Assembly (NCBI RefSeq): GCF_000002865.3
Contig: NW_001865085.1
Span: 189,162 to 209,161, forward strand
Length of the DNA stretch: 20,000 nucleotides
DNA from: Monosiga brevicollis MX1
Taxonomy: Eukaryota
Direction of reading: 5' to 3'
The notes beneath the pieces were generated by a model. It did not search any database and was not told the origin of the DNA. It saw only the letters and a list, made by a program, of their open reading frames with translations. Of the stretch, positions 37-20,000 are shown in pieces (the first letter of the stretch is position 1; each line of letters begins with the position of its first letter). The translations under genes were made by a program, and so were the position numbers.

Positions 37-1039
37 AGAAATGTGTAGGTAGCCACCAATAACCGACAGGCTGGCCAAGCCATTCAAATTAACCAGGGCT
101 CCGTTTCTCTGAGACCCACACCAAGCCGCGGAAGGGTGCCATGAAGATGGGCAGCAACGGGCGAGGAGGGGAATGGCGGATGCGTAGTTCCTTCCCTTGA
201 CATGCATCAAGGGAGATCGGATGACAGACCTCTATCCGGACGTTTCCGGTGACGTTGCGCAGCTCGACAAGTACGAGCAGGTCGCTCGCTAGCAGAGCAC
301 TGCAACCAGACAGGATAAGATCGCCTCTTATTTCCGTGACGCCAGCAGGCACATTGCTGAGGCTGCACGAGCTTATATTGGGCGAGATCACGGGCTCAAG
401 ACTTGTGGTTGTGGGAGCTGGTGAGGAGGTGAAGATGCTGGTGGTGCGGCCAGCCAGCGCAGCGACAGCCTGCTGCAAGATCGCGAGCTCATCCAGCAGC
501 GGCAACCCATTGACTGATACTTTCCCGGATCTGCTGCTGTTGAGAATGACATTGCCAAGGGGGTCCAGCGTCATTTCGGCCTGAACGGTTGGAGAGTTGG
601 CCATGACGCCGGGAGGCGACGATGTAAGCGCTGGGACAAGAAGCTCTATTTGCGCTCGCAGCAGCAACAACTCGGCGCGGACGTCAATGCCATTGAAAAG
701 AACCGTGCTGCCATTCAAGTGCAAGCCACCGCCATCATCGACGCCAACGGTGACATCCTCAACACTCGAACCAGCCACAGGGGTGGCAGCCGGGGTCGAG
801 GTCGAGGTCATGGCCGTGGGGGTAGTCCAATCAGAGAAGGCGGCCGTGGCATTCTGTTTCAGGGCGCCTAGCTGCGCCACAACGTCAACGCCATCAACCA
901 ATACACGTTTCGAGCAGTTGACATGCAGTCGACCTGAATCGTCCACAATCAAGTGGCCATCCAGCACCAGCGCCCTGATACCACCGATCAGCAACACCGC
1001 CGCCAGCAGCTGCAAAAGCCGTACCCCTCTCCATGCCAT
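37..1039 (-). CDS. Paralog A (partial, runs off the window start): secreted receptor-L-domain-like repeat protein. Exon 1 is 1039-230, exon 2 is 108-37.
   Basis: ATG at 1039 gives the signal-peptide-like MAWRGVRLLQLLAAVLLIGGIRA, then three 'DxxGxLxLNxxxxVxxNGxDxxxxLxxL' motifs with S/T/P linkers and an L-domain start (IRGDLILSGC...LRNVTGNVRIE). A GT donor follows at 229. Exon 2 is a 72-nt phase-0 exon RNGALVNLNGLASLSVIGGYLHIS flanked by CAG and GTGCGT. Confidence 0.85.
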
Positions 1040-1131
1040 CACCGAACACTTTGGAGTAATCTTCGTCGTCGACCAAGTCCACCCCTGACATCCCAAGCCA
1101 TGGATCGGCCAGCGCTCAAACAGGACCGCCC

Positions 1132-1164
<33 letters not shown>

Positions 1165-1350
1165 GTGCATTTGTCGAAGTTTGTCTGACAACTTGGAAAC
1201 TGAGATGATGAAGAGAGGAGAGAAAGGGAGAGGAGAGAAAGGGAGAGAAAGGTAATAACACAACTACCACATGTAAAGGGGGATCAATTGGAGAGGGTAT
1301 ACACAATGACACTAACTACCACATGTGACAACAGGAAACAAAAGAAACAA

Positions 1351-1783: not shown

Positions 1784-3341
1784 GTGCTCCTCTTCTTGGG
1801 AGTGATCGATCGATCGCGGTGATGGGGCGCCAGAGTTGCAAGTCGCAGCAATGGGGCCGGTCCTTGGTGCTCATGGCCCTGGCCATGCTGCTGGCCGGGA
1901 CGGGAGCACGGCCGACCATGCGCTTGGATGCCGTTGGGAACTTGCGCATCGACACCGGTCCGACCGAGACGGCTGCCAGCGTCTTGCTCAACGGCGTCGA
2001 TGCCGTTGGGGCCCTGACCACCCTGCGGCGGGCGATTGCTAATCTGGGCGGCCACATCATCGAGCCTGCTCCCCTTATCAAGGAGCCTGTCGAGGCAGCC
2101 AAGGCTCGCTTTGCCCTGAATGAGTGTGGCCATCTCGTCCTCAACAGCAGCGCGGGCCGAGGCGTTCTGTTGAATGGGATGGACGTCCTGCACGAGCTGA
2201 CGCTCCTCCAGCAAGCCACAGAGGCCCTAGCGTCGAGTGCTGCGATCGAGACGGCCTCCACGGCCTCAAGCGCCTCGGTGGCGCCTGTTTCCGCTTCCTG
2301 TTCTAAGCTGATGGATGCGAGGGCCGAAAATTCCATCACGGTCGACTCTGTGGGCAACGTTCATCTCAATTCGAGCGGGATGCAGGCCATATGGCTGAAT
2401 GGGCTGGATTTTCTCAGCGCGCTGACCGAGCTGCAAGCCGCGGTCACCCGTCTGGAGCAAGCCACCACGGCGTCTCCGAGCACCTCACCGGTCCCCGTCC
2501 ATGTCCATGTGGGCAACGTGGGCTGTGACCTGTCCGCAATCCCGCCCACCACTGCCACCATCCAGGGGAACCTGATGCTCGACCAATGCGGGGACGCGTT
2601 CACGGGGGCCGGGATGATGGTCTTGAGCCACCTCCAGCGGGTTGAAGGGTCTGTATCCATTTCGGTGCGTCGAATTCGGCACCAACCCAACCTCTTGAAT
2701 GCGACCATGATACACGATGCTGTCTGGGACGGTGCTTCACCCTGAGCCCCTCTTGTTCGACGCTAGGGCAATGCTGCTTTGACCCACGTGGATGGTCTGA
2801 GCAACCTCTATTACATCAGTGATAGCCTGACGATTGGCGTACGTGCTGTCGATGCCGTCCAACTGACGCAACCGTTCTTCTTGTGTTTCTGTGTTTCCGT
2901 GTTTATTTACTGACACTTTGATTTTTTTTTCTCCTTGGCAGAACAATGCTGCTTTGACCAGCGTGGATGGTTTGGGGCATCTGATCGACATCGGCGGCTC
3001 CTTGACAATTTCTGTATGCCGACACACACCTATTTTACAGCAAAGCGGCGTGCAAGGTCATGCCCGCATGTTCTCAACCACAATAATGGGTCTGTGTGAC
3101 AGGAAAATATGCAGCTGACCGACATTGATGGCTTGAGTGGTCTCAAGTCTATTCCTGGCCATGTTTATCTCTCCGTACGTCAGACGCATCATTCCGAGCT
3201 TTGCAAGGAAAAAGCCGGGACGCTCTTTGGATGGGTATCACCCCTTCAATCATACTCACTCTGGTTTCAACGGTATTATTATCAATATCATTTTTATGTT
3301 TTTCGCAGAACAATGCCCAGCTCACCAATGTATATGGCTTG
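1784..3341 (+). repeat. Near-identical segmental duplicate, copy 1 (copy 2 at ~6507-8057)
   Basis: Identity starts at GTGCTCCTCTTCTTGGGAGTGATCGATCG (1784 and 6507, offset 4723). It covers exons 1-4 and introns 1-3, weakens late in intron 4, and ends within exon 5 after ATGGCTTG. Confidence 0.95.
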
Positions 3342-5481
3342 AACAATCTCCACAACATTAGCGGCAGCTTGCAGATTAACGTGTGTACCTTTGTGACGGT
3401 TTGCCCTGCCCCTGGGCACCATGGCGCTGTCACCCGTTCTTACTTCCTTCTTGGCATGTTTGATCCCTTTGTTCGCAGAACAATGACAACTTGTTGAACG
3501 TGGATGGCTTGAACAATCTCCACATCATTGGCGGCGGCCTGCAGATCAACGTGTGTACCTTTGTCGCGTTTTGATCTGCCCCTGGGCGCCATGGCTGTCA
3601 CCACACGTTCTTACTTCCTTCTCTTTGCATGTTTGATCCCTTCGTTGGCAGAACAATGACAACTTGTTGAACGTGGATGGTCTGAGAAACCTCAGCGCCA
3701 TTGGCAGCTTCTTGGCAATTTCGGTACGATTACAGCAAGTTTGCGTGCACTCAACCCCAAATGCATGATCGGCTTTTCTCAACCACCAATGGTCCACGGG
3801 ACAGAGCAACATGTTACTCACCAACGTTGATGGGTTGAGCGGTCTTGGATCCATCCCGGGTTACCTTAATCTTTACGTACGGTACAGAGCCTGCCTTGCA
3901 ACAAAGCAATCAAAGTGTCCTTTGGAAGAATGATTGTTCTTACAAGGCATATTTGCGTAGAACAATGCCGCCCTGTCCAACTTACGCGGTCTGAACAGCA
4001 TTTCCTCCATTGGCCTAGACCTGGCGATTTCTGTATGTGCTGGCAGCAACCTTGGTGGCGTTCTAATTTTGTCCTCACCCTGTAAAACGTTTTTCGGCAG
4101 GCCAATGCCGTTTTGAGCAACGTCGACGGGCTTGGCAGTGTTACGAGCACTGGTGGTCGCTTGTATCTCCAGGTACGTTGTTGAGGGTGTCTCATGCTGA
4201 TGTTGCAGGGTTGGGTCCTGTCCGTCACATTTGGTGTTTCACTGGCTTGATCAGACCAATGTTGCCCTGTCCAATGTTGACGGGCTTGGGAATATCATCA
4301 GCGTTGGAGGTGACTTGATCGTGCGGGTATGTTTCTGTCCGAGCAAGCCGCGGGTCTAGCCCTCAACCCAATTGGGCTGGTGGTGCGCACTTCTGAGCGT
4401 CTCATGCGGAGGTACATTGCTGGCTGGTAAAGAACAATGTTGCGCTCACCAATGTGGATGGGCTTCGGAGTCTTATAAGCTTTGTTGGCGACTTGGTCAT
4501 CTGGGTTTGTCGTCGTTTGCGAGCATGTCATGCCAATGTTTTGTCTGCGCGAGAGCAGTTCGCATTATTTGAAGGTGTACTTTCAAACGTCTTATGTGAT
4601 GCTCTACTGATCGGGGCAGGGTAACGTCGCCTTATCCAATGTGAATGGGCTCATGGGCCTCACAAACGTTGGTTACCTCTTCTTCCACGTACGTTGTCGC
4701 GTGCTGGCGCCATGGCGGTGCTGTGGACTGGTGGACGGAAAGCCGATCAGGATAATGACGTTCCTTCAGGCGTCTCATCGGTTCTTTCTGCTGACCGGAC
4801 AGAGCAACCACGCCCTGACCAACGTGTACGGGCTTTCGAACCTCCAAAGCGTCGGTGGCTATTTGTTGATTGATGTATGTTGCGCGAAGGCTTGGCGTGC
4901 TGATGTTACAGTGTTGAGTGATGATCGGCGCAACGGGTGAAAATGTATAATCGTCTTGTGCTTTTGCCGGCTGGTGCAGTACCATGCCAGCTTGACCAAT
5001 CTTGATGGGCTGGGAAGGCTCACAAGCGTTGGTGACTACTTGAGCATCAATGTACGTTCTGATCTGAGAGCAACGTCGATGATGTGAGGGCGTGATATGA
5101 GATGGTGGTGTGCACGTCTTACTTACTACCTTGGACAGAACCTTGGCGCCCTGACCGATGTGGATGGGCTTGGAAATCTCACAGCCGTTGGTGGCTCCTT
5201 GGCCATCTTTGTACGTGGCTGAGGTTCAAGGAACATGCTGATCTTGCGGGTGTGGCCGAGTGCATCCTCATATGTAGTTGTAAACATCTCATTTCCCGAT
5301 TTGCCGGCTCGTGTAGTCTAATACGGCCCTGAGCAATGTGCAAGGGCTTGCAAGTCTTACATCCGTCGGAGCCGACGTTCAAATTTGCTCGAATCCTCAA
5401 CTAGACCTATTATCGGTGCCTGCATCGGTTCTGTCGCTTGGCACCTGCCAGGTTATTGGCGGAACATGCAGTCCCTGTTGA
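1822..5481 (+). CDS. Paralog B: secreted receptor-L-domain-like (24-aa LRR-like) repeat protein, 17 exons, ~694 aa
   Basis: Exons read by hand, all bounded by AG/GT in phase 0: 1822-2664, 2767-2838, 2942-3013, 3103-3174, 3309-3380, 3479-3550, 3652-3723, 3805-3876, 3961-4032, 4101-4172, 4255-4326, 4433-4504, 4620-4688 (69 nt), 4803-4874, 4980-5051, 5139-5210, 5317-5481. Repeat consensus xNxxLTNVDGLxxLxxVGGxLxIx. Hydrophobic signal LVLMALAMLLAGTGA. Cys cap C-x19-C-x6-CSPC-stop. No transmembrane segment seen. Confidence 0.9.
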
Positions 5482-6149
5482 ATTGCTGCTGTAGCTCGCG
5501 TTTGGCGTGATCTTGATGCTTTGCAGCATGTGGTGGGACTTGTTTGAGCCACAAAGTGTGGAGATTAGTCTGTATCTGAACCAAGCGCGCGAGCGGTGGG
5601 CCGCTTGGGAAGTGAGCGAGAGACCGTTAGGACGGAGCAGGAGATTTGATGGTGGTGAATGTCAATTCAAGCGGTTTGGTGACTAGGCTGCTGTATCTCC
5701 CGCACACATTAGGGTTGTTTGATTCGGAGGACAAGAACATTTTACACTTGTGTCAAACCGCAGGTGTAACTGCAAAAAAGTGGCAAGAGGTAGCCACGGG
5801 CTTTTGGCACACAAGGCAGTCTACTCGCAAGTTGTGACGCATTTAAGGACATGCGAGGTCCGACGCGTATCCCGCCAAACTTGCGCATCAGAGAGAGTTT
5901 GTAGGTATGCATGCGTGAATGCAACCAGATCAACAATAAGGAGTTGGACAATGATAGCTGTGTGCGCACCCAGAGCAAGTCTTTGACGATCGGATTTGAA
6001 GCCAGAGGTGGTTCATTAAAAAAATGGCTAAATTCGTGCCATAGATGAACGATCGAGAAACAAAGAGAGACGGAGAGGCAGGGGAGGCGGAGGTGGACAA
6101 ACGCTAAGACACCAGAAGGGCATGGAGACAATGGAGAGAGAGCTAGTTG

Positions 6150-6506: not shown

Positions 6507-8057
6507 GTGCTCCTCTTCTTGGGAGTGATCGATCGATCGCGGTGATGGGGCGCCAGAGTTGTCAGTCGCAGCAGTGGGGCCGGTCCTTGGTGCTCATGGC
6601 CCTGGCCATGCTGCTGGCCGGGACGGGAGCACGGCCGACCATGCGCTTGGATGCCGTTGGGAACTTGCGCATCGACACCGGTCCGACCGAGACGGCTGCC
6701 AGCGTCTTGCTCAACGGCGTCGATGCCGTTGGGGCCCTGACCGCCCTGCGGCGGGCGATTGTTCATCTGGGCGGCCACATCATCGAGCCTGCTCCCCTTA
6801 TCGAGGAGCCTGTCGAGGCAGCCAAGGCTTGCTTTGCGCTGAATGAGTGTGGCCATCTCGTCCTCAACAGCAGCACGGGCCGAGGCGTTCTGTTGAATGG
6901 GATGGACGTCCTGCACGAGCTGACGCTCCTCCAGCAAGCCACAGAGGCCCTAGCGTCGAGTGCTGCGATCGAGACGGCCTCCACGGCCTCAAGCGCCTCG
7001 GTGGCGCCTGTTTCCGCTTCCTGTTCTACGCTGATGGATGCGGGGGCCGAAAATTCCATCACGGTCGACTCTGTGGGCAACGTTCATCTCAATTCGAGCG
7101 GGATGCAGGCCATATGGCTGAATGGGCTGGATTTTCTCAGCGCGCTGGCCGAGCTGCAAGCCGCGGTCACCCGTCTGGAGCAAGCCACCACGGCGTCTCC
7201 GAGCACCTCACCGGTCCCCGTCCATGTCCATGTGGGCAACGTGGGCTGTGACCTGTCCGCAATCCCGCCCACCACTGCCACGATCCAGGGGAACCTGATG
7301 CTCGACCAATGCGGGGACGCGTTCACGGGGGCCGGGATGATGGTCTTGAGCCACCTCCAGCGGGTTGAAGGGTCTGTATCCATTTCGGTGCGTCGAATTC
7401 GGCACCAACCCAACCTCTTGAATGCGACCATGATACACGATGCTGTCTGGGACGGTGCTTCACCCTGAGCCCCTCTTGTTCGACGCTAGGGCAATGCTGC
7501 TTTGACCCACGTGGATGGTCTGAGCAACCTCTATTACATCAGTGATAGCCTGACGATTGGCGTACGTGCTGTCGATGCCGTCCGACTGACGCAACCGTTC
7601 TTCTTGTGTTTCTGTGTTTCCGTGTTTATTTACTGACACTTTGATTTTTTTTCTCCTTGGCAGAACAATGCTGCTTTGACCAGCGTGGATGGCCTGGGGC
7701 ATCTGATCGACATCGGCGGCTCCTTGACAATTTCTGTATGCCGACACACACCTATTTTACAGCAGAGCCGTGTGCAAGGTCATGCCCGCATGTTCTCAAC
7801 CACAATAATGGGTCTGTGTGACAGGAAAATGTGCAGCTGACCGACATTGATGGCTTGAGTGGTCTCAAGTCTATTCCAGGCCATGTTTATGTCTCCGTAC
7901 GTCAGACGCATCATTCCGAGCTTTGCAAGGATAAAGCCGGGACGCTCTTTGGATGGGCATCACCCCTTCAATCATACTCACTCTGGTTTCAACGTTATCT
8001 TTTCTTCTTTAAATTTTTTCGCAGAACAATGCCCAGATCACCAATGTGGATGGCTTG
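6507..8057 (+). repeat. Near-identical segmental duplicate, copy 2
   Basis: Direct comparison with 1784-3341 shows only scattered substitutions and small indels. Confidence 0.95.
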
Positions 8058-8827
8058 GCTAGTATCAATTATATTGCTAGTCACCTCAGCTTGATTGTGC
8101 GTTTGGTCCGAAGAATTATTTGGCTCAGTACTTGGCCTCGGTTGACAAACACGTTTTTTATCAAGACCATGACGTTGTTTTTTTGCTTACAGGGCAACAC
8201 TGCTTTGAGTCAAGTCGATGGTCTGCGAAGCGTTACTAGCGTGCCCGGGCACCTCACCATTACGGTACGCCAACTCATGACATTGCTTGCCCTGCGACTA
8301 TCACAACTATTGTATCATGACTCCTTGCGTAGGAGAACGATTCAATAACAAACGTGGATGGACTTGGCAGTTTGGCTGGCGTTGCTGGTAACTTCGACTT
8401 GAACGTACGAAAATTGTGCTTGTGACCCTGCTTGCAACCATAGTGCCTCTTTTTTTTTTTTTGGCGCATTGTTGCAATTGGCTGATGATGACCCACGCAG
8501 TTTAACACTGGCTTGACCAACGTGGATGGACTGAGCAGTCTGGTTCGAGTCGGTGGGGATCTCAACTTGAACGTACGATAGCGTTGTGGTATTGACCCGA
8601 TGGTTGGCATGTGCTAACTATATTTGCACGCATTGCCGGTCCAACTGCCCTCCTTTTAGGCCAATGATCATTTGACCAGCGTCAGCGGTCTAGCTAGCCT
8701 GGACTCTGTTAATGGAGCCGTGCGTGTTTGCTCCAACCCTCACCTTGACCTTTGGAGCGTTCCCCTTGAACTAAATTCTCTCGGCGCCTGTCAAGACATC
8801 ACCACCGGAACGTGCGGCTCTTGTTGA
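6545..8827 (+). CDS. Paralog C: secreted receptor-L-domain-like repeat protein, 9 exons, ~504 aa
   Basis: Exons 6545-7387, 7490-7561, 7664-7735, 7825-7896, 8025-8096, 8193-8264, 8333-8404, 8501-8572, 8660-8827, all GT-AG and phase 0. Same repeat consensus as B. Terminal exon ends ...VCSNPHLDLWSVPLELNSLGACQDITTGTCGSC-stop. Confidence 0.9.
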
Positions 8828-10118: not shown

Positions 10119-11889
10119 GATGGCTGGACACCACTGCACTGGGCCTGCATTCACGGTCATCCCACGGTGGTAAAGATGTTGTTGAAGCACGGTGTTGATT
10201 CTGACGCCAAGGCCAACGTCGGTACAGTACCTCCCCCTTCTCGTTACCCCTCTGACTGCTGCTCTTGCTCCCGTTGCTCGTCGCCTTTGCCCCGTCCCTC
10301 CTCTCCTCTACACCCTGCCCACCCGTGCGCGTCCGTTCTTCCCCCTGGCTCCTTTTTTCTTTCCCGCTATCCCTCTTTTCCCCCGTTTTGCGTCCGCCCG
10401 TTGTCGGTGCTCCCCGCGCCCCGACCCTGCGCCCCGCTGGTGTCTTCCGTCTGCCGTCCTTGCTCTCCCCTTTTCTACTCTATCCAGGCACCACTCCACC
10501 CTTTGCCGTTGCGCCTCTGCCTCTCTCGCTCGCTTCAGCGGCTTTTGGTGGTCGTTTCTTCAGTTTTACCCATCACACTGAGCTTTCCCTTTCTTTTTTT
10601 TTTTTCTTCCCCTCTCCAAACGCGCCTCCTTTCGAACCCCTGCTACCTGCCCGTACCATTTGTACACCACTCGCGCGTCTGGCGGCTTCGGCACACTCAA
10701 AAGAATTTTCGCCTGTGTTCTGAGAAAACAAATGCACGTCGCCCAACTCAGCCCTCGCGTCGCTGCCCACCTTACACGCTCCAATCACATGTTCTCAGAG
10801 TGGCGAAACGCCCCTCGAATGCGGACGTCGCAACGGACATGGCGACGAGCTGGAGCCCGTGTTTGCTGCTCACGAGGCTTGCCTGTCACAACCACCCGCA
10901 TCCCTCGCTCCGCCCACGCCGGCACCGCCTTCAGCCTGGCTGCCGTCTCTGCCCACCACCCCCACCCTCGAGGTCAGCCTGCTCTCCCATCTTATTTTCC
11001 CAATGCAGTTACTACCCCAATCCCCACGGCCTTATCCAACCTGATCACGACCAATGGCACCACGCAACCCTTATTTAGACCACGGCCTCTGTTGTGGTGG
11101 CAGTGGACAGGTGGCTCAAGCCGCTCCTGCCCGCGCACACCACCACCCATCCCCTCTCTCACCTCGATGCATTTATCAACGGTGCTGCCAAACAAGACCC
11201 CAATCTTGGAACGGCAGTTGCTTCAATCCGCAAAACCATCGATGAAGCTCGACCAGATTGTCCCGCCATGGACTGGGCTACCTTTCAGGCGACCATTACC
11301 CAGGTTCTCAACGCACTCGACCAGGCACTGGCAGCGCCCAAAGCGTTGAGCAACCGCTTGAAGCAATTGGACCCCAACACTGACAACCTAGAATCAATAC
11401 TGCAAGAGCTGCATGGTGCCACGACTGGATTTGAGCTGCAACCAGCTTTTCTTGAGCTTCAGACCTTTTTGGCAGCATGCCCCGCTCCACCCACCACGCC
11501 AGTGATTGCGCCCAAAACGCCACCCTCCGACCTAGCGGCGGCCCTGAGCAAAGTCATCGTTCTGAGCGGCGTGGAACCCAAACGTCAAGAGCTGCTCACC
11601 AGCGCCAACAGCAACCTCAAGCGCTTGGTGCTGGCCTTGATTGATGCCCTGGGTGCCGTGGCAAGAGCGGGAACCAATGACACGATTCATCGCGTGGAGA
11701 CGCTAGGGCAGTGCGCGCGATGCGTGGATGCGAGTGCGCCGCCGCCAGCCGAGGCATTGCCCGAGGCCTGGGAGGAGCTATGCCAAGCTCACGGGAAGCT
11801 GAGCCTAACGCTATGCAGAGGCAAATGTCATACATGTGTTTTGTTCTGCCCCCTTTTAGGCTTGAGCTGTCGAATGAGAAACTTACATG
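10119..11889 (+). pseudogene. 5' part of an ankyrin-repeat + Pro-rich + alpha-helical domain gene, interrupted by the mobile element
   Basis: A 99-nt phase-0 ankyrin exon at 10119-10217 reads DGWTPLHWACIHGHPTVVKMLLKHGVDSDAKAN. Exon 10799-10972 reads SGETPLECGRRNGHGDELEPVFAAH (capping ankyrin-like) followed by a Pro-rich stretch. An exon from 11079 (TTASVVVAVDRWLKP...helical...MRNLH) is open up to the TTACATG repeat. Upstream exons (~9880-9998) are unresolved. Confidence 0.65.
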
Positions 11890-14268
11890 TTAACAAATCT
11901 ATCCCCCGGGAATGCCACGGCCTGCAAGCAGAACTCAAGTGTGACATCATGTTTTGTCTTTTTCCACACGTCAATCCATCCTCTTTCAATCCATTCTCGC
12001 CTTGCTCGTATCCTCTGTTCACTCGGCCCGCCAACGCTTCGAGCTATCGTCATTCAACACACCCAGCCATGTCAAGGGCGCAAGAGAGCGTTTGCTTGCA
12101 CTGCAATATCACCTTCCACAGTCGTGTTGCAAGAGATCAACATGTTTCTTTGGTGCGTGGCGTGCATCATGAATCTGTCTGATTGTTCTCCGAAAAAAAA
12201 AAAAAAAACACCTCATCACCTCATCATCATTCGTGAACATGTAGGTGCACCAGAAGAGAACACGGATCAGGTTGAACGGAGAAGTGATCGTTCGACACCG
12301 GGAGAATGACGGCTTTTTTCATTGCCGAGTGGCAGGGTGCCACTACCGCCACAAACGTGCGGTCACTCTCAAGTCTCACCTTCGACACCAACATGAGGAG
12401 CGGGCACCACCCATGCCGGCAGTGATCAACAACCATCCGCCTGCTCGCCAAAAACCCGCTCGAACGCGCACGAGAAAGCGCGTAGTCAGGCTTGACCGAG
12501 GCCTAGGCATTGCTGGGGCTCGGCAGTTCATGGAGGGCATTGGTTGCTTGGTGAGCCCTGCTGTTGCATCACTGGTCTGTACGCATTGTGGCCATGTCCT
12601 GAGCGGCAGGGTACTCCATCACATCCTCAACAAGCACCATGTAAGGTGTAGCCAAGAAGATATCGACGCAGCCACGGCACTCCTGCGCTCCCTGCAGCCT
12701 GAGGAGCCGCCAATTAACCTCGGGCCAGAATCAGGACCTTGTTTGCCTGTAGAAGGCATTCCTATTCTTGACGGTGTGGGTTGCCCCTTATGTCAAGCAT
12801 GCTTTACCTCGAGCGGCAGTCTCAAAAATCACGTTATGGCAGAGCATCCAGATGAACCAGGGGCCTAGCAGTCGCCACGACTTGTCAAGCTGCAAAAGCC
12901 GTTGCGTGGAGCTGGAGTTCGTTGTGTCGAGGTCATTGTCGAAGAGAGCCACGATGCTTCGGCAGCCGATGTAAGCGAAAACGAGCAGGAGCTCGAGGAG
13001 CAGCAGCGGTTCAAGCACTTTATCTCAAGCACCCAGGCCATGGCCTCAGAGGCTGAGGATAAGCGATGCCCGCACGGCGTTCACCAGATGCATCCGTTCT
13101 ACGACAGCGTGGGCATGACGCTGGTCATTAACGAGCTGAAGTCAGAGCGCATGGTCGAACTGGGCCACAACACCCCGTCGGCACTCCTCGAGTCGGGCAT
13201 GCATGAGCTGTTCTGGACGGCCTACGAGCAGCTCTCGGATCAGGGCCTGGCCGCCGCTGCGGTGACGCGTCTGTTTGACGACAATGAAGGGCAGTATCAG
13301 CATCGCCCCATGCGGCAAGTACAGCCGCAAACCGTCAGCAGGTACCTGAGTCTTGGAACACGCCTGGTCCAATTTTTGCTGCTGCTGGAGGCCATGCCAG
13401 CCCCCGATCCGTCCAGCTTTCTGGGCCAGGTGCTTGCCAGCCGTGGCCCTGCGGTAATCAATGCCACCGCGGCTCTGAGTGCGGCTCTGGACGCTGGAAT
13501 GACCAAGAAAGAGCTGGTCGAGCCCCTGACGTCTCTGTGGCTGGCCCTGGTGGAGGTGGAGCTGAGCCTCTTTGACAACGACAAGGTGCACTTTGTCAAC
13601 GTCTTCCTATTGTGCACGGCCGTGTCCAAAGGAAGCGGCATCCTGCAAGACATCAGGCAGTGGACCACGACGCCCGCTGGACTGCTGTACGTTTTCAAAT
13701 TGTTCCTGCTTCGCCGTGGCAAGAATGAGTCGTGGTCAGTGGCCAACGAGTTGAGGCCGTATATGCAGCCCGGGCGATTGGTGCATTTCTTGAGCCAGCG
13801 CATGAGCATGGCACGAACAGCGAGCATGGCCGAGGGGCAGGCTGGAGTCGACGTCGAGGTCCGAGCCGATGGCGACGTGACGGACGAGACGCTGCACACC
13901 ATTGTCTGTCGAGGCATTGAGCTCAATGTGGAGGAGCTTGGGGCTGCCTTGGAGCAGATGCGCAAAGACATGACGGAAACATTGGACAAGCACCTCTTGT
14001 TGGTCTCAGGCCTGCGGACGAAGTACGAGAACGAAAATGAGCGGCTGCGATTGAAGGAGGATCGGACCAACAGGGTCAAGAACTGGTGGGTGGGCCATGG
14101 CAGTCCAGCCGAGAACGCGCTGTTTGATCACATTGGCCAGACCCCGAGTCTGCGGCAAGAGTTTATCCGAACGGAGCATGGGTCCAGTGGCGAGCTGACC
14201 TTTCGAGAGGACAGGGTACGGGTATGGCTCCGATATGTGCGCAGGTTCAACGAGCTAGCACTCACCTA

Positions 14269-14312
14269 CACGCACATTGCCGGAGGTACGATTGAATCAA
14301 GCCGTCTCTTGG

Positions 14313-14345
<33 letters not shown>

Positions 14346-15213
14346 TTCCTGCCACTCATGCCTGCTTGCCTTTGACTAGGTCTGCCGCCACGAGCCTCTG
14401 TGTATCAAGGGCTGTCCTACAAAAACGGCGTGGGCCGGCAACGAGCCGCGTTTTTTTGCCGAGAAGCAGCTCTCCATATTGACCCGCGTGAGCAAGACCT
14501 ACTGGCTGTCCCTGAACGAACAGCACACCTTTCGATACGTAGACCAGGAAATCAGCACGCCTGCGATCCATGAGAGAAGCAATAACAGATCAGGAAGAAA
14601 GAGGACGTGAGGAACAATGATGATCTAGATAATGAAAAGGGGGCTGATATTCATGTATTTACTGCTGTGCAAGCCTCTGGAGCACATGCTGAGCAGCTGG
14701 CTGCAAAAGCGGGGCGGGCTGGACACCCCCGACGACGAGAACGGCATTCACAATGCCGAGCAGGACGACGAAGATTTCCTCGACGACGAGCTGGATGAAG
14801 ACCACATGAGCCACGACGAGACGATGACTTTGCGACGCGAGGTCCGGGACGCTCGAAACCACTACAACAACAGCCACCTGCTCTTCAACATTGCGCCCCT
14901 GCAGACGATGGTCAGCCCAGCCACCATATATGCGACATTTCGTCGACAAATGACCACGTACCTGCATCGGCCAAAGCTGGGGGTGGCCACGTGGCGACAC
15001 GCCGCAACCTTCTGGATGACGACGTTTGTGATTAACCGACTGTCGGCCGAGACGACCGGCGCCCTGGGCAGCCTGATCCACACTCAAGCTCAACACTCTG
15101 GGGACACCGCCCAGCGGGCCTATGCACGCACAGCCAGTGACCATGTGCAAACCAAAATGTCGTCGCGATTGATGCATCAAGTGGCCTCGCAAAAATGGCA
15201 TGCTTTGTTTGGA
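14269..15213 (+). other. Tyrosine-recombinase-like catalytic domain within the polyprotein
   Basis: Candidate catalytic residues occur in canonical order: R in GGLPPR (14391-14393), K in TRVSKT (14494-14496), WRH (14992-15000), H in QAQHS (15094-15096), Y in RAYAR (15121-15123). Assignment is by motif recognition, not by a profile search. Confidence 0.65.
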
Positions 15214-15399
15214 CTAGATCGCAAGCGCAGCATAGCCGAGTTGACCGCGAACCAAGAAGCATTGAAAGCTCGCTATCCCATCAGCTGGAACCCGGTGACT
15301 GACCTCTCACCCGAGGCAAACGGGCGTATCATCATGAACACGAGGGCCGAGCATGACGTACCCTACATGACCCAGCTGGCCAAGCAGGCGAGCATCTCG

Positions 15400-16631
15400 T
15401 GGGGCCACAGTTTCAACAGCCAAGAACAGTTGGACCTGGCTGCGGCTATTGACCAGCACCAGCCGGAGGATGGATGGCTGATTGTTGTTGCACCGACAGG
15501 CATGGGCAAAACATTTTGTACCCTGCCCAAGCTGGGCTGTCGCCCGCATGCCGGTACGGTGCTGTGGATTGTGCCGTTTGTGGCCGTGGCCAACGATTTA
15601 TTGCGGCGATTTCAAGGCGCAGGTCACAGTGCCCAGCGATGGCTTGGTCCCTCTACACAGGTGGCAGATGGCCTGGACGTGCTCATCGTTACGACCGACA
15701 TGTTTGTCCGCGTGGGATCTGAATCCCTACATGGGAAGGTCTGCTTTCAGCGCATCCGCACCGTGGTGATGGACGAGGCGCACACACTCATCTCAGATGC
15801 CAGCTACCGAGATGTGATGGACGAAGTCGCAGCCAGTGTTGGCTCTGGCGGATGGACCAACATCAAACGCGTGGCGTTGACGGGCACACTTTGCATCGGG
15901 GACCAGGAGCATCTGTTTCGAAAGCTGGGTCAGCAAGTCGGGGGCAAGGTGTACCGTCTGGAGACGATGCGTCGCGATCTGCAGCTGCGTGTGCTTCACG
16001 GAAATCAGCTGAACTTTTTGTCGCATGTGCAAGACACTGTGGACACGCAGCGGGTGATGCGTCAGGCGAATGGGGAGCGTGTGCACATGATGGTCTTTTG
16101 CGACACTGTGAACGAGGTGAAGCTGCTGTGTGACCAGCTGCACGCACGCGGCTACATGGCCTTGCCCTACTACACCGACCTGGAGGAGAAGGCGCAAAAG
16201 GACCACGTGGCACAGTGGCAACGGGGTGAATGCGACGTCATTGTGGCCACCAGCTGCCTCAGCACGGGTGTGGATCTGCTCACCATTCGCCACGTGCTGT
16301 GGTATGGCAACGGCTACAACGTCTATACGCTGGCCCAGGTACGTTGTTGCTCAAACAGTCGTGTGACTGTATGGAGTTGAAAACAAAAAAAAAAATTCAA
16401 TTGTTGGTTTTGCTGATGGTGTACATGTGCTTGGGCTAGGCATTTGGTCGGGCTGGTCGCGATAAACAGGGAGGAACTGCCGAGCTGTGGCTACCAGTGA
16501 GACGTGGGCCAGCACCGGGCATGGAAAAGTTTGTCGAGGGCAATGCGTGCCGCAGCTGGGCGCTCGGCAAGTTGCTAGATCCCCGCGCCGCGACATGCTT
16601 TGCTGCCGGCCAGTCGCTTTGTGACGTGTGC
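15400..16631 (+). other. RecQ-family SF2 helicase domain plus RecQ-type Zn-binding motif
   Basis: Motif I APTGMGKT (15490-15513), Ia IVPFVAV, II DEAH (15772-15783), III LTGT, IV MVFC, V VATSCLSTGVD, VI QAFGRAGRD (spliced), then CR..LD..C..CDVC. Confidence 0.92.
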
Positions 16632-18753
16632 GCAGGAACAGCACAGCGCCTGGAGCCAGCAATAGCTGCGCGCCAGCAGCGCGCTGCCCAAGCGTTGAGT
16701 GTGGGGCATGTGGAAGCAGAGCCCGAGGCGATGGCGGAGGAGGAAGATGTGTTGTCTGAGCCACCTGCAGCACGGCTCGAGGAAGAAGAATCGATCGGGC
16801 CAGAGTCCGCTTTGGATGTAACTTCAGCATCGAACGTTGACACAGTCGCGTCCCCAGGACCAGGTGCCGTTGCAGCGCAGTCGAGCAGAAGCACTCCACG
16901 TGCCCAGGACACGGCTGTGGTGGCGACAAATGGAGGGCCAATGACGGACGCTGCTGTGCCACGGATACAGACGAGTGCTGCTTGGATTGATGAGGCAGAT
17001 ACAGCACCCATGTCGGTGCCAGCTTCACCCATGGTCTCTGATGCTGATGGCGAGGCGCCTTTACAGCAAGACGCGCGTGGCCCGGCGCAAACCACGATGG
17101 CAGAGGGCGAGAGCACGTCACAGCCAGTCGTGCAGTCAGCAGCACAGCCAACCCCCACGAAACACGCGCCAACCCCGTCGGCCTCGATCATTTGCGTGCC
17201 AGTACCATCGGCCTCGGGTTCAACCTCGTCTCCGGCGCGATCGGCTGCAAGCTCAGCCTCGGGTACACTGCGGCGTAAGCGAGTGCCGCTGGCTGCTGAA
17301 AGTACATGTACCCCTGGGTCTGACAATCATGACGATGGCAACGGCATCGCTACCAGCCCTGCTGCCTCAACATCCAAGCGAACGGCATCGGATGTCACGT
17401 GCACAGCTGTTGCTTCTTCAACAGCGGCGCAAGCAGCGGAGTCGCCTCTTCCCGCAGCAAAACGAGCAGCATCGAGTGGCACGCGCACCGCTACCGTTGC
17501 CGCTACTGCTATCACTCGCTCTGAAGCCCCGGTATCTGCTGCGGCTACGCCACCGAATCGGCACAACGTCGCCCCAATATTTCGGTCGAAATCGGGGACA
17601 AAAAAAAAAATCTGATGAACAACGCGGCGGCTGACAAGTTTATTGGCGTTCTGAAGTTGATGGATGATTACTGCATGCGATGTACCATTCGACAGGCGAA
17701 ACCCGTCCTGAAGGCTGGGCATCAATGCGTATGCAATCGTGTTTGTGAGCGGTGTCACTTCGGAGGACACGAGACAAGTGAATGTTCAGTGCACCTCGCA
17801 TACCCCGACAGAGCCTGTTGCTACGCTTGTGGAATGCCAAGGAAGATTCGTGGATGGGATACATGGAATCACCGTTGCAGGCAGTCTCAAGGACTGGATT
17901 CGGGCCTGAGCTGTCTCCTCCTTTATTCGGACTGTAATCCGGGGCTGCGCGACCTGGCCCACCGGATGGGCTACAACTTGAGGGAAAGGACATTGAAGGA
18001 TATAAAAACGCGCGACTTGTTTGTCAAGTGGCTGTACTCGTCCGGTCCTTGTCCATTTCCAGGGGATGGGCATTGGCGTCTTGTGGAATTTGTGTTTGAA
18101 AGTGCGAGGATCCTGCTTCCCAGTGCGGCGGAAGCCCAAGTCGGCCCCCTCGACAGCTTTCGCTAAACACACACAGGAAGCCCTTTTGAGAATCAGAACA
18201 CAGAACCGAATGTCAGAATGTCATCATCTTTTGTATCTTCAATAACTGCTGAATAGACTGCATCTTTTTACTTGGAATGGCCATGATCAGCTTCAATTAA
18301 TTGAAGCTTTGCTGCATTAACCTCTTGCCTCTATATCCTTCCCTTTGCTGTTGACTTCATTTTTTTTTTTTCTCACAGACGCGCCACGATGAAGCGGGCC
18401 ATGGGCGGGGCGCGCGCGCACTCCTGGTGGTGCGTTGTCGTCGTTGTGGCGCGACGGGCAAGTGCTGCCGAGGTGCAAGCGACGTCATGGATGAACGGGT
18501 GGCCAAGCGACATTGCCGCGTGACCGTCATGGATTTACCATTCTTGCTGATCTCGTGTTGGGCTGCCATTTGTTGTCAAGACAATTCCTCGCTCTGACCC
18601 ATGAAGAGCCGCGATGGCTCGTGCGCTGATGGACGCGCTAGCGAGGCCCAAGAGCCACGGTGCCTGGTCAGATCCGGCACGAAGCACTCCCGCTCAAATG
18701 CAGGTGAGAAACCGATCTTAGGCCCGCTTTTGAAGATGCTATCCATGTTGCCC

Positions 18754-19088
18754 NNNNNNNNNNNNNNNNNNNNNNNNNNNNNNNNNNNNNNNNNNNNNNN
18801 NNNNNNNNNNNNNNNNNNNNNNNNNNNNNNNNNNNNNNNNNNNNNNNNNNNNNNNNNNNNNNNNNNNNNNNNNNNNNNNNNNNNNNNNNNNNNNNNNNNN
18901 NNNNNNNNNNNNNNNNNNNNNNNNNNNNNNNNNNNNNNNNNNNNNNNNNNNNNNNNNNNNNNNNNNNNNNNNNNNNNNNNNNNNNNNNNNNNNNNNNNNN
19001 NNNNNNNNNNNNNNNNNNNNNNNNNNNNNNNNNNNNNNNNNNNNNNNNNNNNNNNNNNNNNNNNNNNNNNNNNNNNNNNNNNNNNNNN
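18754..19088. other. Assembly gap (335 N)
   Basis: Run of N. Confidence 1.
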
Positions 19089-19089
19089 G

Positions 19090-19501
19090 GCCCGGCTGCC
19101 ATTTGGTGTTGGCCAAGGAGCCAAGGCGCGCCTTTGGTTTTTTTTTTTGGCCGTTGAGCGGGGTGCTAATGATGAGGCTGTCGTGTCACAGGATAGCCAC
19201 AGGTGGATGAGGACTCCATAGTGAGCAGCGAAATCTCGTGAAGAATGAGAGGTAAGCTTTGTTTTGACGTTCGCCGAAAATTGTGACCAGGAGCCCGGCT
19301 GCCATTTGGTGTTGGCCAAGGAGCCTTAGGCGCGCCTTTGGTTTTTTTTTGCCCTTGAGGGGGTGCTAATGGTGGGGCTGTCGTGTCACAGGATAGTCAC
19401 AGGTGGATGAATACTTCCCATTGAGCAGCGGAAGCGTGCGAAGAATGCGTGGTGAGCTTTGTTTTGACGTGCGCCGAAAATTGTGACCAGGGGCCCGGCT
19501 G
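19090..19501 (+). repeat. ~200-bp tandem repeat (two full units plus the start of a third) near the right end of the element
   Basis: Units start with GCCCGGCTG at 19090, 19293 and 19493 (periods 203 and 200). Shared blocks include GCCATTTGGTGTTGGCCAAGGAGCC, GTCGTGTCACAGGATAG and CGCCGAAAATTGTGACCAGG. Confidence 0.92.
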
Positions 19502-19586
19502 TCACTCGGTCTTCGCAAATGGCCCGTCGCTCGCATTTGTTCAATTTTTGGGTTCTTTTTATCGTGGTGGCCATTAATTTTACATG

Positions 19587-19907
19587 ACAAGTCAACGTTC
19601 GAGCTTTTGGTGCGCTGTACTGTCGGTACTCAATCGAATCATTCGGGATGTTTATTGTCATGTGGGTTCGGCGCAACCGCTAACAGCGACACGATCGGAG
19701 GCTAACCGCTAATGCGTTGGTGAAAGGATTGTTGAAAGACATCAATTTATAATATCAAGGCGAGGAAGCAAAAGTTTGAAACGCGTGCAAGGATACAAGT
19801 CGAGAGAAAGGGAAGCAGGTGGCGTGAGGACGGTACCGGATCATTGAGCGTGAAGTAGGAATTGAGGAACAAAGCGGCGGAGAGGAAGATGAAGATGCGG
19901 CAATCAG
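19587..19907 (+). pseudogene. Probable resumed 3' part of the interrupted ankyrin/helical gene (exon pieces 19587-19609 and 19687-19907)
   Basis: Reads DKSTFELL, then a 77-nt GT-AG intron, then RHDRRLTANALVKGLLKDINL*YQGEEAKV*NACK...IIEREVGIEEQSGGEEDEDAAI. The frame has strong G bias at codon position 1. There are three stops (19750, 19777, 19825), each one C>T change from a sense codon. Donor GTAAAA at 19908. Confidence 0.45.
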
Positions 19908-20000
19908 GTAAAAATTAGGAAGTATGCAAAGCAGAGGGATTTGAGAGAGCAGGACGGGGAGGCAGCGTTTGGCAAAAAGTGTGATTGAAAGAGCAGCAAG

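What the first reader, a model, noticed from the sequence alone, without database searches (positions are those of the whole stretch)
11883..19586. Candidate new class of DNA transposon: a tyrosine recombinase fused to a RecQ helicase, inserted inside a host gene
Seen: a ~7.7-kb block sits between two TTACATG repeats, has no TIR or LTR, and carries one intron-containing polyprotein with Zn fingers, an R-K-RH-H-Y motif set and a complete RecQ helicase. Known: Cryptons are intron-containing eukaryotic tyrosine-recombinase DNA transposons with short terminal direct repeats and no helicase. The DUF3505-...-RecQ architecture is familiar from fungal telomere-linked/telomere-associated RecQ helicases, which are usually annotated as host genes. 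Inference: the protein is the transposase/replicase of a self-mobilising element that integrates by YR crossover at a 7-bp core and may be amplified as a circle by its helicase. That would also recast the fungal proteins as mobile elements. I do not know of a named superfamily with this architecture, but I cannot search the literature.
Basis: partly seen in the sequence, partly recalled or inferred. Interest (0 to 1): 0.92.

Follow-up and report, generated by a model that had tools for sequence, protein, structure and literature searches.

The report
Recombinase hidden in choanoflagellate telomere helicase

Summary
The protein observation holds; the ends do not. The gene is a pseudogenised copy (four lesions) of the Monosiga brevicollis telomere-linked helicase (TLH) family: 24 gene models on 22 scaffolds. 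Two AlphaFold models of a 90-93% identical paralogue match tyrosine recombinases (XerA Z 12.0, rmsd 3.0, 171 residues; first 32 rows all of that superfamily). R-K-R-H-Y is complete in 90 of 105 relatives. Ten literature searches found no paper calling the TLH domain a recombinase. This scan noted it earlier in fungal windows; I retested it here outside fungi. TTACATG is one of 14 chance 7-mers. DNA past the proposed right end is also high-copy, no empty site or circle appears, and a related contig lacks the left TTACATG. A better left end lies at 11804-11807, where two different flanks (an ankyrin-kinase gene here, another TLH copy in run X9) meet the same sequence through CCT. Most likely: a Y'-like terminal element that captures chromosome ends by recombinase crossover plus helicase-driven copying. 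Mobility and activity are inferred, not shown.

The parts
10119..11806 (+). Upstream ankyrin(-kinase) family gene, cut off at about 11806; the left flank, not part of the element
   Evidence: Ank repeat at 10119-10220; 11079-11807 is 84% identical to residues 157-401 of P0004, an Ank-kinase-PARP-like model that runs on for over 600 residues; other copies continue differently behind 11804-11806
11804..11806 (+). CCT shared by two different left flanks and the element: candidate crossover core; candidate true left end at 11807
   Evidence: X9 contig 23 (399 nt, depth 14): 27 letters matching TLH exon 2 at 12759-12785 (24 of 27), then 11804-12155. One contig of one run; shorter side under 30 letters
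11807..12069 (+). 5' non-coding leader of this TLH subfamily
   Evidence: single contig in X1 and X2, one related contig in X9
11883..11889 (+).
   Evidence: 7 letters left out at 11883 in the X9 contig; one of 14 shared 7-mers
12070..12152 (+). TLH exon 1 (start, first half of a C2H2 finger)
   Evidence: like the N-terminus of P0013
12245..14285 (+). TLH exon 2: C2H2 fingers, OrsD/DUF3505 (12572-12847), predicted recombinase core-binding domain (about 13187-13834), start of the catalytic domain
12866..12868 (+). Premature TAG of this copy
13835..15213 (+). Predicted tyrosine-recombinase catalytic domain (the 'TLH domain'), across intron 14286-14379; R 14391, K 14494, R 14995, H 15094, Y 15121
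14380..16338 (+). TLH exon 3, with a frameshift near 14451 and an 84-bp insertion at 14559-14642; RecQ-type helicase 15475-16338
16440..18166 (+). TLH exon 4: helicase motif VI, Cys cluster, low-complexity linker, frameshift near 17599, C-terminal Cys/His-rich region
18167..20000 (.).
19580..19586 (+).

Best explanation
This is a broken copy of the multi-copy telomere-linked helicase gene of Monosiga brevicollis, whose middle domain is predicted to be a tyrosine recombinase and which likely is the motor of a chromosome-end element that spreads by capturing other chromosome ends. Shown: gene structure, four lesions, many copies, conserved R-K-R-H-Y, high-copy DNA beyond 19586, an upstream gene cut at 11806. 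Predicted: a complete core-binding plus catalytic recombinase module. Inferred mechanism: the zinc fingers and recombinase of an intact copy bind the element's left end and make one strand exchange with a subtelomeric target that shares a short core (CCT here). The fused RecQ helicase then drives branch migration or copying out to the telomere, so the recipient's distal end is replaced. One crossover is enough, which leaves a truncated gene upstream and no matching right junction. This copy would depend on intact copies or on ordinary subtelomeric exchange.
For: Fold: XerA Z 12.0/rmsd 3.0/171 residues; XerH, IntI, Cre and Tn1549 Int align over both domains (259-282 residues); first 32 rows are of the recombinase/TopoIB superfamily, first unrelated row Z 4.3; second model best Z 9.3, first 28 rows. 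All five residues in 90 of 105 rows, most at 15-24% identity, and in both Monosiga families (P0014, P0019). Copies: 24 models on 22 scaffolds, never more than two on one; body contigs at depth 318-462 against 13.5. Left junction: two flanks, one breakpoint, shared CCT. Relatives: a gene followed by a terminal TTAGGG array (L011); TTAGGGT upstream in 6 of 15 loci, 9 hits against 0.97 expected, 0 of 300 resamplings; Fusarium units sit singly or in arrays with telomere repeats on both sides; Botrytis has 14 copies in one strain and none in two others.
Against: No activity, mobility or right end was seen. The left end rests on one 399-nt contig of one metagenome run, 27 letters on the short side; microhomology repair could make the same joint. 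Most copies have other 5' regions, so this end is not shared family-wide. No telomere repeat lies in the window and the genome was not available, so the terminal position is inferred. Foldseek gave no hit at E <= 0.001 and Pfam shows no recombinase family. The His of the usual H-x-x-R box is missing. A subfamily with changed catalytic and Walker A residues also sits on four scaffolds, so copies spread or persist without their own enzyme. Summed contig depth is not a copy number.
Confidence: 0.5

Rival explanations
1. Host telomere-maintenance gene. The recombinase-fold domain works as a TopoIB-like nickase, junction cutter or telomere resolvase for recombination-based telomere upkeep, and the copies spread passively by subtelomeric exchange.
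For: TopoIB (Z up to 9.6) and protelomerases (TelK 6.2, TelA 5.0) are among the fold hits. S. pombe tlh genes are induced in, and help recovery from, telomerase loss (as reported). No TERT was found in M. brevicollis (PMC5405514). A catalytically changed subfamily is on four scaffolds.
Against: Xer-type recombinases rank above both, and the core-binding domain aligns with them. Magnaporthe ends lacking TLH are stable and two Botrytis strains lack it. Many copies are broken. One breakpoint with two flanks is not expected from random exchange.
Confidence: 0.27
2. Two-ended element that excises as a circle and reintegrates, like a Crypton or yeast Y' circle, with its real right end beyond the window and telomere repeats as attachment site.
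For: Fusarium arrays with telomere repeats on both sides; TTAGGGT relics upstream of fungal genes, one as an inverted pair with a 6-bp spacer (L012); the only CCTAA of the window is at the left junction.
Against: No contig joins other sequence of the window's 3' region to 11807-12039; none of 19 fungal loci is a circular contig; the cut ankyrin gene has no second half within the window.
Confidence: 0.18
3. One reading: a 7.7-kb transposon between TTACATG repeats, inserted in one host gene.
For: The 7-mer occurs only at these two places; splice-like signals flank both.
Against: 14 such 7-mers are shared; the right flank is high-copy; no empty site or circle covers 11820-12039; X9 lacks the left 7-mer. 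The joined flanks gave stop codons in the one phase translated.
Confidence: 0.05

Closest known systems
[quoted passage not shown]
   Same: C2H2 fingers, TLH domain, RecQ; many copies, many broken; tandem repeats beside the gene; gene pointing to the telomere in a relative (L011).
   Different: Nothing at family level: this is a member. New is the reading of the TLH domain as a recombinase and a candidate defined left end; the papers seen treat TLHs as host genes of unknown function.
Xer/Cre/integrase-type tyrosine recombinases (XerA 4a8e, XerH 5jjv, IntI 2a3v, Cre 1kbu)
   Same: Predicted core-binding plus catalytic fold; R, K, R, H, Y in order.
   Different: 11-17% identity, large insertions, no His at the H-x-x-R position, fused to zinc fingers and RecQ; no Pfam PF00589 hit.
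Cryptons (recalled)
   Same: Eukaryotic, intron-containing recombinase gene; no TIR or LTR.
   Different: Helicase fusion; proposed short terminal repeats fail; Ndc10 (Crypton-related, recalled) scores only Z about 5; copies appear tied to chromosome ends.
Starships, DUF3435 captains
   Same: Recombinase-mobilised eukaryotic DNA elements with the recombinase gene first.
   Different: No DUF3435 hit in any relative scanned; no cargo block seen; found outside fungi.
Yeast Y' elements
   Same: Subtelomeric helicase units, single or in arrays.
   Different: No recombinase domain is reported for Y' in what I read; not tested here.
AcademH / KolobokH helicase-bearing DNA transposons
   Same: Transposition enzyme paired with an SF2/RecQ helicase.
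   Different: They use DDE transposases with TIRs and TSDs (recalled); none seen here.

Membership tests
TLH | N-terminal C2H2 zinc fingers | tested here: met
   (OrsD E 1.2e-9; zf-C2H2 hits under their cut-offs)
TLH | TLH domain upstream of the helicase | tested here: met
   profile of 113 fungal relatives, a set in which two proteins are named tlh1/tlh2-like, hits paralogue P0014 at E 1.6e-12 among 20 proteins; I did not see the published domain alignment
TLH | RecQ-type helicase | tested here: met
TLH | Multi-copy | tested here: met
TLH | This copy lies next to a telomere | tested here: inconclusive
   no genome, no telomere array in the window; at most two models per scaffold, tandem repeat and ankyrin neighbour fit
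Tyrosine recombinase superfamily | Core-binding plus catalytic fold | tested here: met
   on predicted models; Foldseek same direction but not significant (78, 86)
Tyrosine recombinase superfamily | Catalytic R, K, R, H/W, Y conserved | tested here: met
   90 of 105 rows; assignment by order and motif, residue-level superposition not seen
Tyrosine recombinase superfamily | His of the H-x-x-R box | tested here: not met
   column is S 28, A 25, Q 21, R 14, L 8 of 108
Tyrosine recombinase superfamily | Cleavage through a phosphotyrosine | not testable with these tools
   needs biochemistry
Crypton | Short direct repeats at two defined ends shared by dispersed copies (recalled) | tested here: not met
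   for the proposed ends; a right end beyond the window is untested
Crypton | Recombinase as sole enzyme, no helicase (recalled) | tested here: not met
   but 42 of 88 relatives show no helicase motif after the Tyr, fragments included
Starship | DUF3435 captain | tested here: not met
   no hit in 6 proteins at E 5 or 38 at E 0.01
Protelomerase / telomere resolvase | Closest fold and hairpin-telomere substrate | tested here: inconclusive
   TelK Z 6.2, TelA 5.0, ResT 3.8, below XerA 12.0
Named Repbase/Dfam family | Match to a curated consensus | not testable with these tools
   libraries not held

The most novel reading that the evidence does not exclude
TLH units of fungi and choanoflagellates are an unnamed class of autonomous DNA element: a tyrosine recombinase-RecQ fusion with one defined end that transposes by capturing chromosome ends. 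In M. brevicollis, where no telomerase gene was found, they may also maintain the telomeres.
Probability: 0.4. Interest if true: 0.9.

Novelty: new variant of a known kind. Interest (0 to 1): 0.68.

Why it matters
The TLH domain has had no function since 2009, and why these helicases sit at chromosome ends is open. A recombinase fold with a conserved tyrosine turns both into a one-residue experiment in S. pombe or Monosiga. The family is large (4131 clusters at E <= 1e-10; the profile includes zinc fingers) and would explain truncation and shuffling of subtelomeric genes. Its presence in a choanoflagellate, on its own long branch, takes the fusion beyond fungi.

Tried and rejected
TTACATG as termini and the interrupted-host-gene model: rejected. 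Whole genome: not held. Monosiga-like loci in JGI metagenomes: 70 pattern matches, none confirmed. Sequence profiles against PDB found only zinc fingers and RecQ, no recombinase. Foldseek on PDB and viral models: no hit at E <= 0.001; XerA, XerH, IntI and phage integrases appear at E 0.2-1.7 among unrelated rows. ESM Atlas: nearest clusters unnamed fungal proteins (0.97); a cluster with 17% Phage_integrase at 0.86 is a lead only; a second Atlas look-up did not complete. No circular contig among 19 fungal loci. No Rfam match in 18100-20000. No source of the 84-bp insertion within the window. Horizontal transfer from fungi: not supported; six Monosiga rows form one side of a long branch (SH-aLRT 100, quick tree, unrooted, 106 of 109 rows kept, most others unlabelled). 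Cryptons and DUF3435 proteins were not on hand, so no tree with them. Expression: run X17 carries the unbroken form of exon 3, but its RNA nature is a guess, so not used. One search was too loose to inform.
Full report
Source and gene. The closest proteins are Monosiga brevicollis models: 20 of 21 hits, 17 at 66-98% and 3 at 32-35% identity. A second search added four more, giving 24 models on 22 scaffolds, at most two per scaffold. The gene runs from ATG 12070 to 18166 with three GT-AG introns and carries OrsD/DUF3505, C2H2, DEAD and Helicase_C; the helicase is RecQ-type. Against contigs of other copies this copy has a TAG at 12866, an extra base near 14451, an 84-bp insertion at 14559-14642 and a missing base near 17599. 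It cannot make the full protein as assembled; the two single-base changes lie in or near homopolymer runs and could be assembly errors.

Known family. TLH genes are described from fungi and from M. brevicollis, with C2H2 fingers, a TLH domain of unknown function and RecQ (bioRxiv 2024.02.27.582403, parts 1-3 of 4 read). A profile of 113 fungal relatives hits the paralogue P0014 over this domain (E 1.6e-12 among 20 proteins). Robertson 2009 was not held; I saw its title and citations. That ankyrin and kinase genes accompany the Monosiga helicases at telomeres is recalled from its abstract; it fits models P0004, P0010 and P0011, which fuse such genes to TLH parts, though these fusions may be prediction errors. 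Two pairs of models share a scaffold with numbers 219 and 105 apart on 1.05 Mb and 0.61 Mb, as expected for opposite ends; this is inference.

The middle domain. I folded P0014, 90-93% identical to the window over this region and unbroken. The whole-protein model (76 rows, mean pLDDT 67, pTM 0.60) gave XerA first (Z 12.0, rmsd 3.0, 171 residues). XerH, IntI, Cre and Tn1549 integrase align over 259-282 residues from about residue 134-175 to 717, so both core-binding and catalytic domains are present. The first 32 rows are recombinases, TopoIB, protelomerases or Ndc10 (SroF, MrpR and Ndc10 placed there from recall); the first unrelated row has Z 4.3. A second model of the catalytic part from another alignment (pLDDT 75, pTM 0.78) gave Xer first (Z 9.3, rmsd 3.6, 163 residues) and 28 such rows. 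Foldseek pointed the same way without significance. R500, K534, R673, H706 and Y715 are all kept in 90 of the 105 rows that cover them, of 109 aligned; single columns hold R 105/109, K 106/109, R 106/108, H 92/105, Y 104/105. The His of H-x-x-R is absent. The profile finds 8632 clusters at E <= 0.001 and 980 at 1e-30; 46 of 88 diverse relatives have a helicase motif after the Tyr, the rest are fragments or helicase-less.

The ends. TTACATG occurs just twice in the window, but the two end regions share 14 7-mers. In runs X1 and X2 a 586-nt contig identical to 11750-12335 has depth 13.5 and 11.7 and is the only cover of 11820-12039: no other copy shares the proposed left end at 80% or more, and no empty site or circle passes through it (contigs drop rare forms). 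Body contigs have depth 305-462. A contig over 19670-20000 has depth 227 with one difference, so the repeat runs past 19586. No joint between the proposed ends is among the 15 shown of 38. A contig joins 18728 to the repeat at 19450 in both runs, so the two sides of the gap belong together in at least one copy.

A better left end. The upstream ankyrin-kinase gene matches P0004 up to 11807 and then stops matching; other copies of it run on differently behind 11804-11806. In run X9 a contig aligns to 11804-12155 with 5 substitutions and 4 indels, one being loss of the 7 letters at 11883. Its first 27 letters are TLH exon 2 (24 of 27 as 12759-12785, two of the differences being common variants), and CCT follows in that exon as at 11804. 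Two different flanks thus meet one sequence at one point through a 3-bp core. This is what a defined end would give. It is one contig, with under 30 letters on the short side.

Mechanism. Best supported (0.5): a terminal element whose recombinase makes one exchange at its left end and whose helicase carries copying to the telomere. It accounts for the cut gene with no second half, nesting in another TLH copy, the shared 3' side and about one copy per end. Fungal relatives fit: L011 ends in a TTAGGG array 320 bp after the match, TTAGGGT is enriched upstream (6 of the 15 loci with upstream DNA, of 19), Fusarium units form arrays with telomere repeats on both sides, Magnaporthe units share the gene-to-telomere part and have tandem repeats (PMC1635262, passages), and Botrytis strains have 14 or none (bioRxiv 2022.03.07.483234, passages).

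Novelty. Searches for TLH or telomere-linked helicase with recombinase, Crypton, Starship, DUF3505 or Monosiga found no paper that makes the link; one search returned none with all four terms. 'Recombinase' does not occur in the main text of the Botrytis preprint, PMC12857005, PMC8381367 or bioRxiv 721753 (term counts and passages). PMC10799480, PMC3627910, PMC9940879 and bioRxiv 2026.05.30.728154 were seen as passages and do not bear on it. Subscription papers, Repbase, Dfam and all supplements were not seen. This scan noted the same domain in eight fungal windows; none for this genome or sequence. My reading was written before that look-up and the fold was tested afterwards.

Noticed in passing
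window 1849-5490 and 6593-8826 (+), 89-1315 (-): Tandem paralogues of a secreted-looking protein with a repeated unit, one short exon per repeat; the first exons gave no Pfam hit. Likely a subtelomeric surface-protein family.
   Followed up: partly
window 11804-11809: The only CCTAA of the window, five letters of the telomere C-strand, sits exactly at the candidate left end, inverted relative to a telomere on the right. May be chance or one arm of a recombinase site.
   Followed up: partly
L012 85-104: TTAGGGT and its reverse complement around a 6-bp spacer, about 945 bp upstream of a fungal TLH gene: the geometry of a tyrosine-recombinase site. L004 and L007 share a related motif about 600 bp upstream.
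   Followed up: partly
P0007, P0008, P0012, P0281 (and P0284, P0285): A Monosiga subfamily with changed recombinase residues and a changed Walker A motif, present on four scaffolds: possible non-autonomous class.
   Followed up: partly
P0286: An 884-aa Monosiga protein with the finger and recombinase-like region, no helicase and lost catalytic residues: possibly domesticated.
   Followed up: partly
P0175, P0203, P0205, P0207, P0222, P0243 and others: Many 860-950-aa relatives have OrsD plus the recombinase region and end soon after the Tyr: possibly a helicase-less class.
   Followed up: partly
window 19127-19728: Very high contig depth in run X17 (650-1090) that falls to zero after 19728, where other runs go on; if X17 is RNA, the 200-bp repeat is transcribed.
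   Followed up: no
window 14559-14642: The 84-bp insertion has two ambiguous letters at its joint and reads on the other strand like a pyrimidine-rich intron end; source not in the window.
   Followed up: partly
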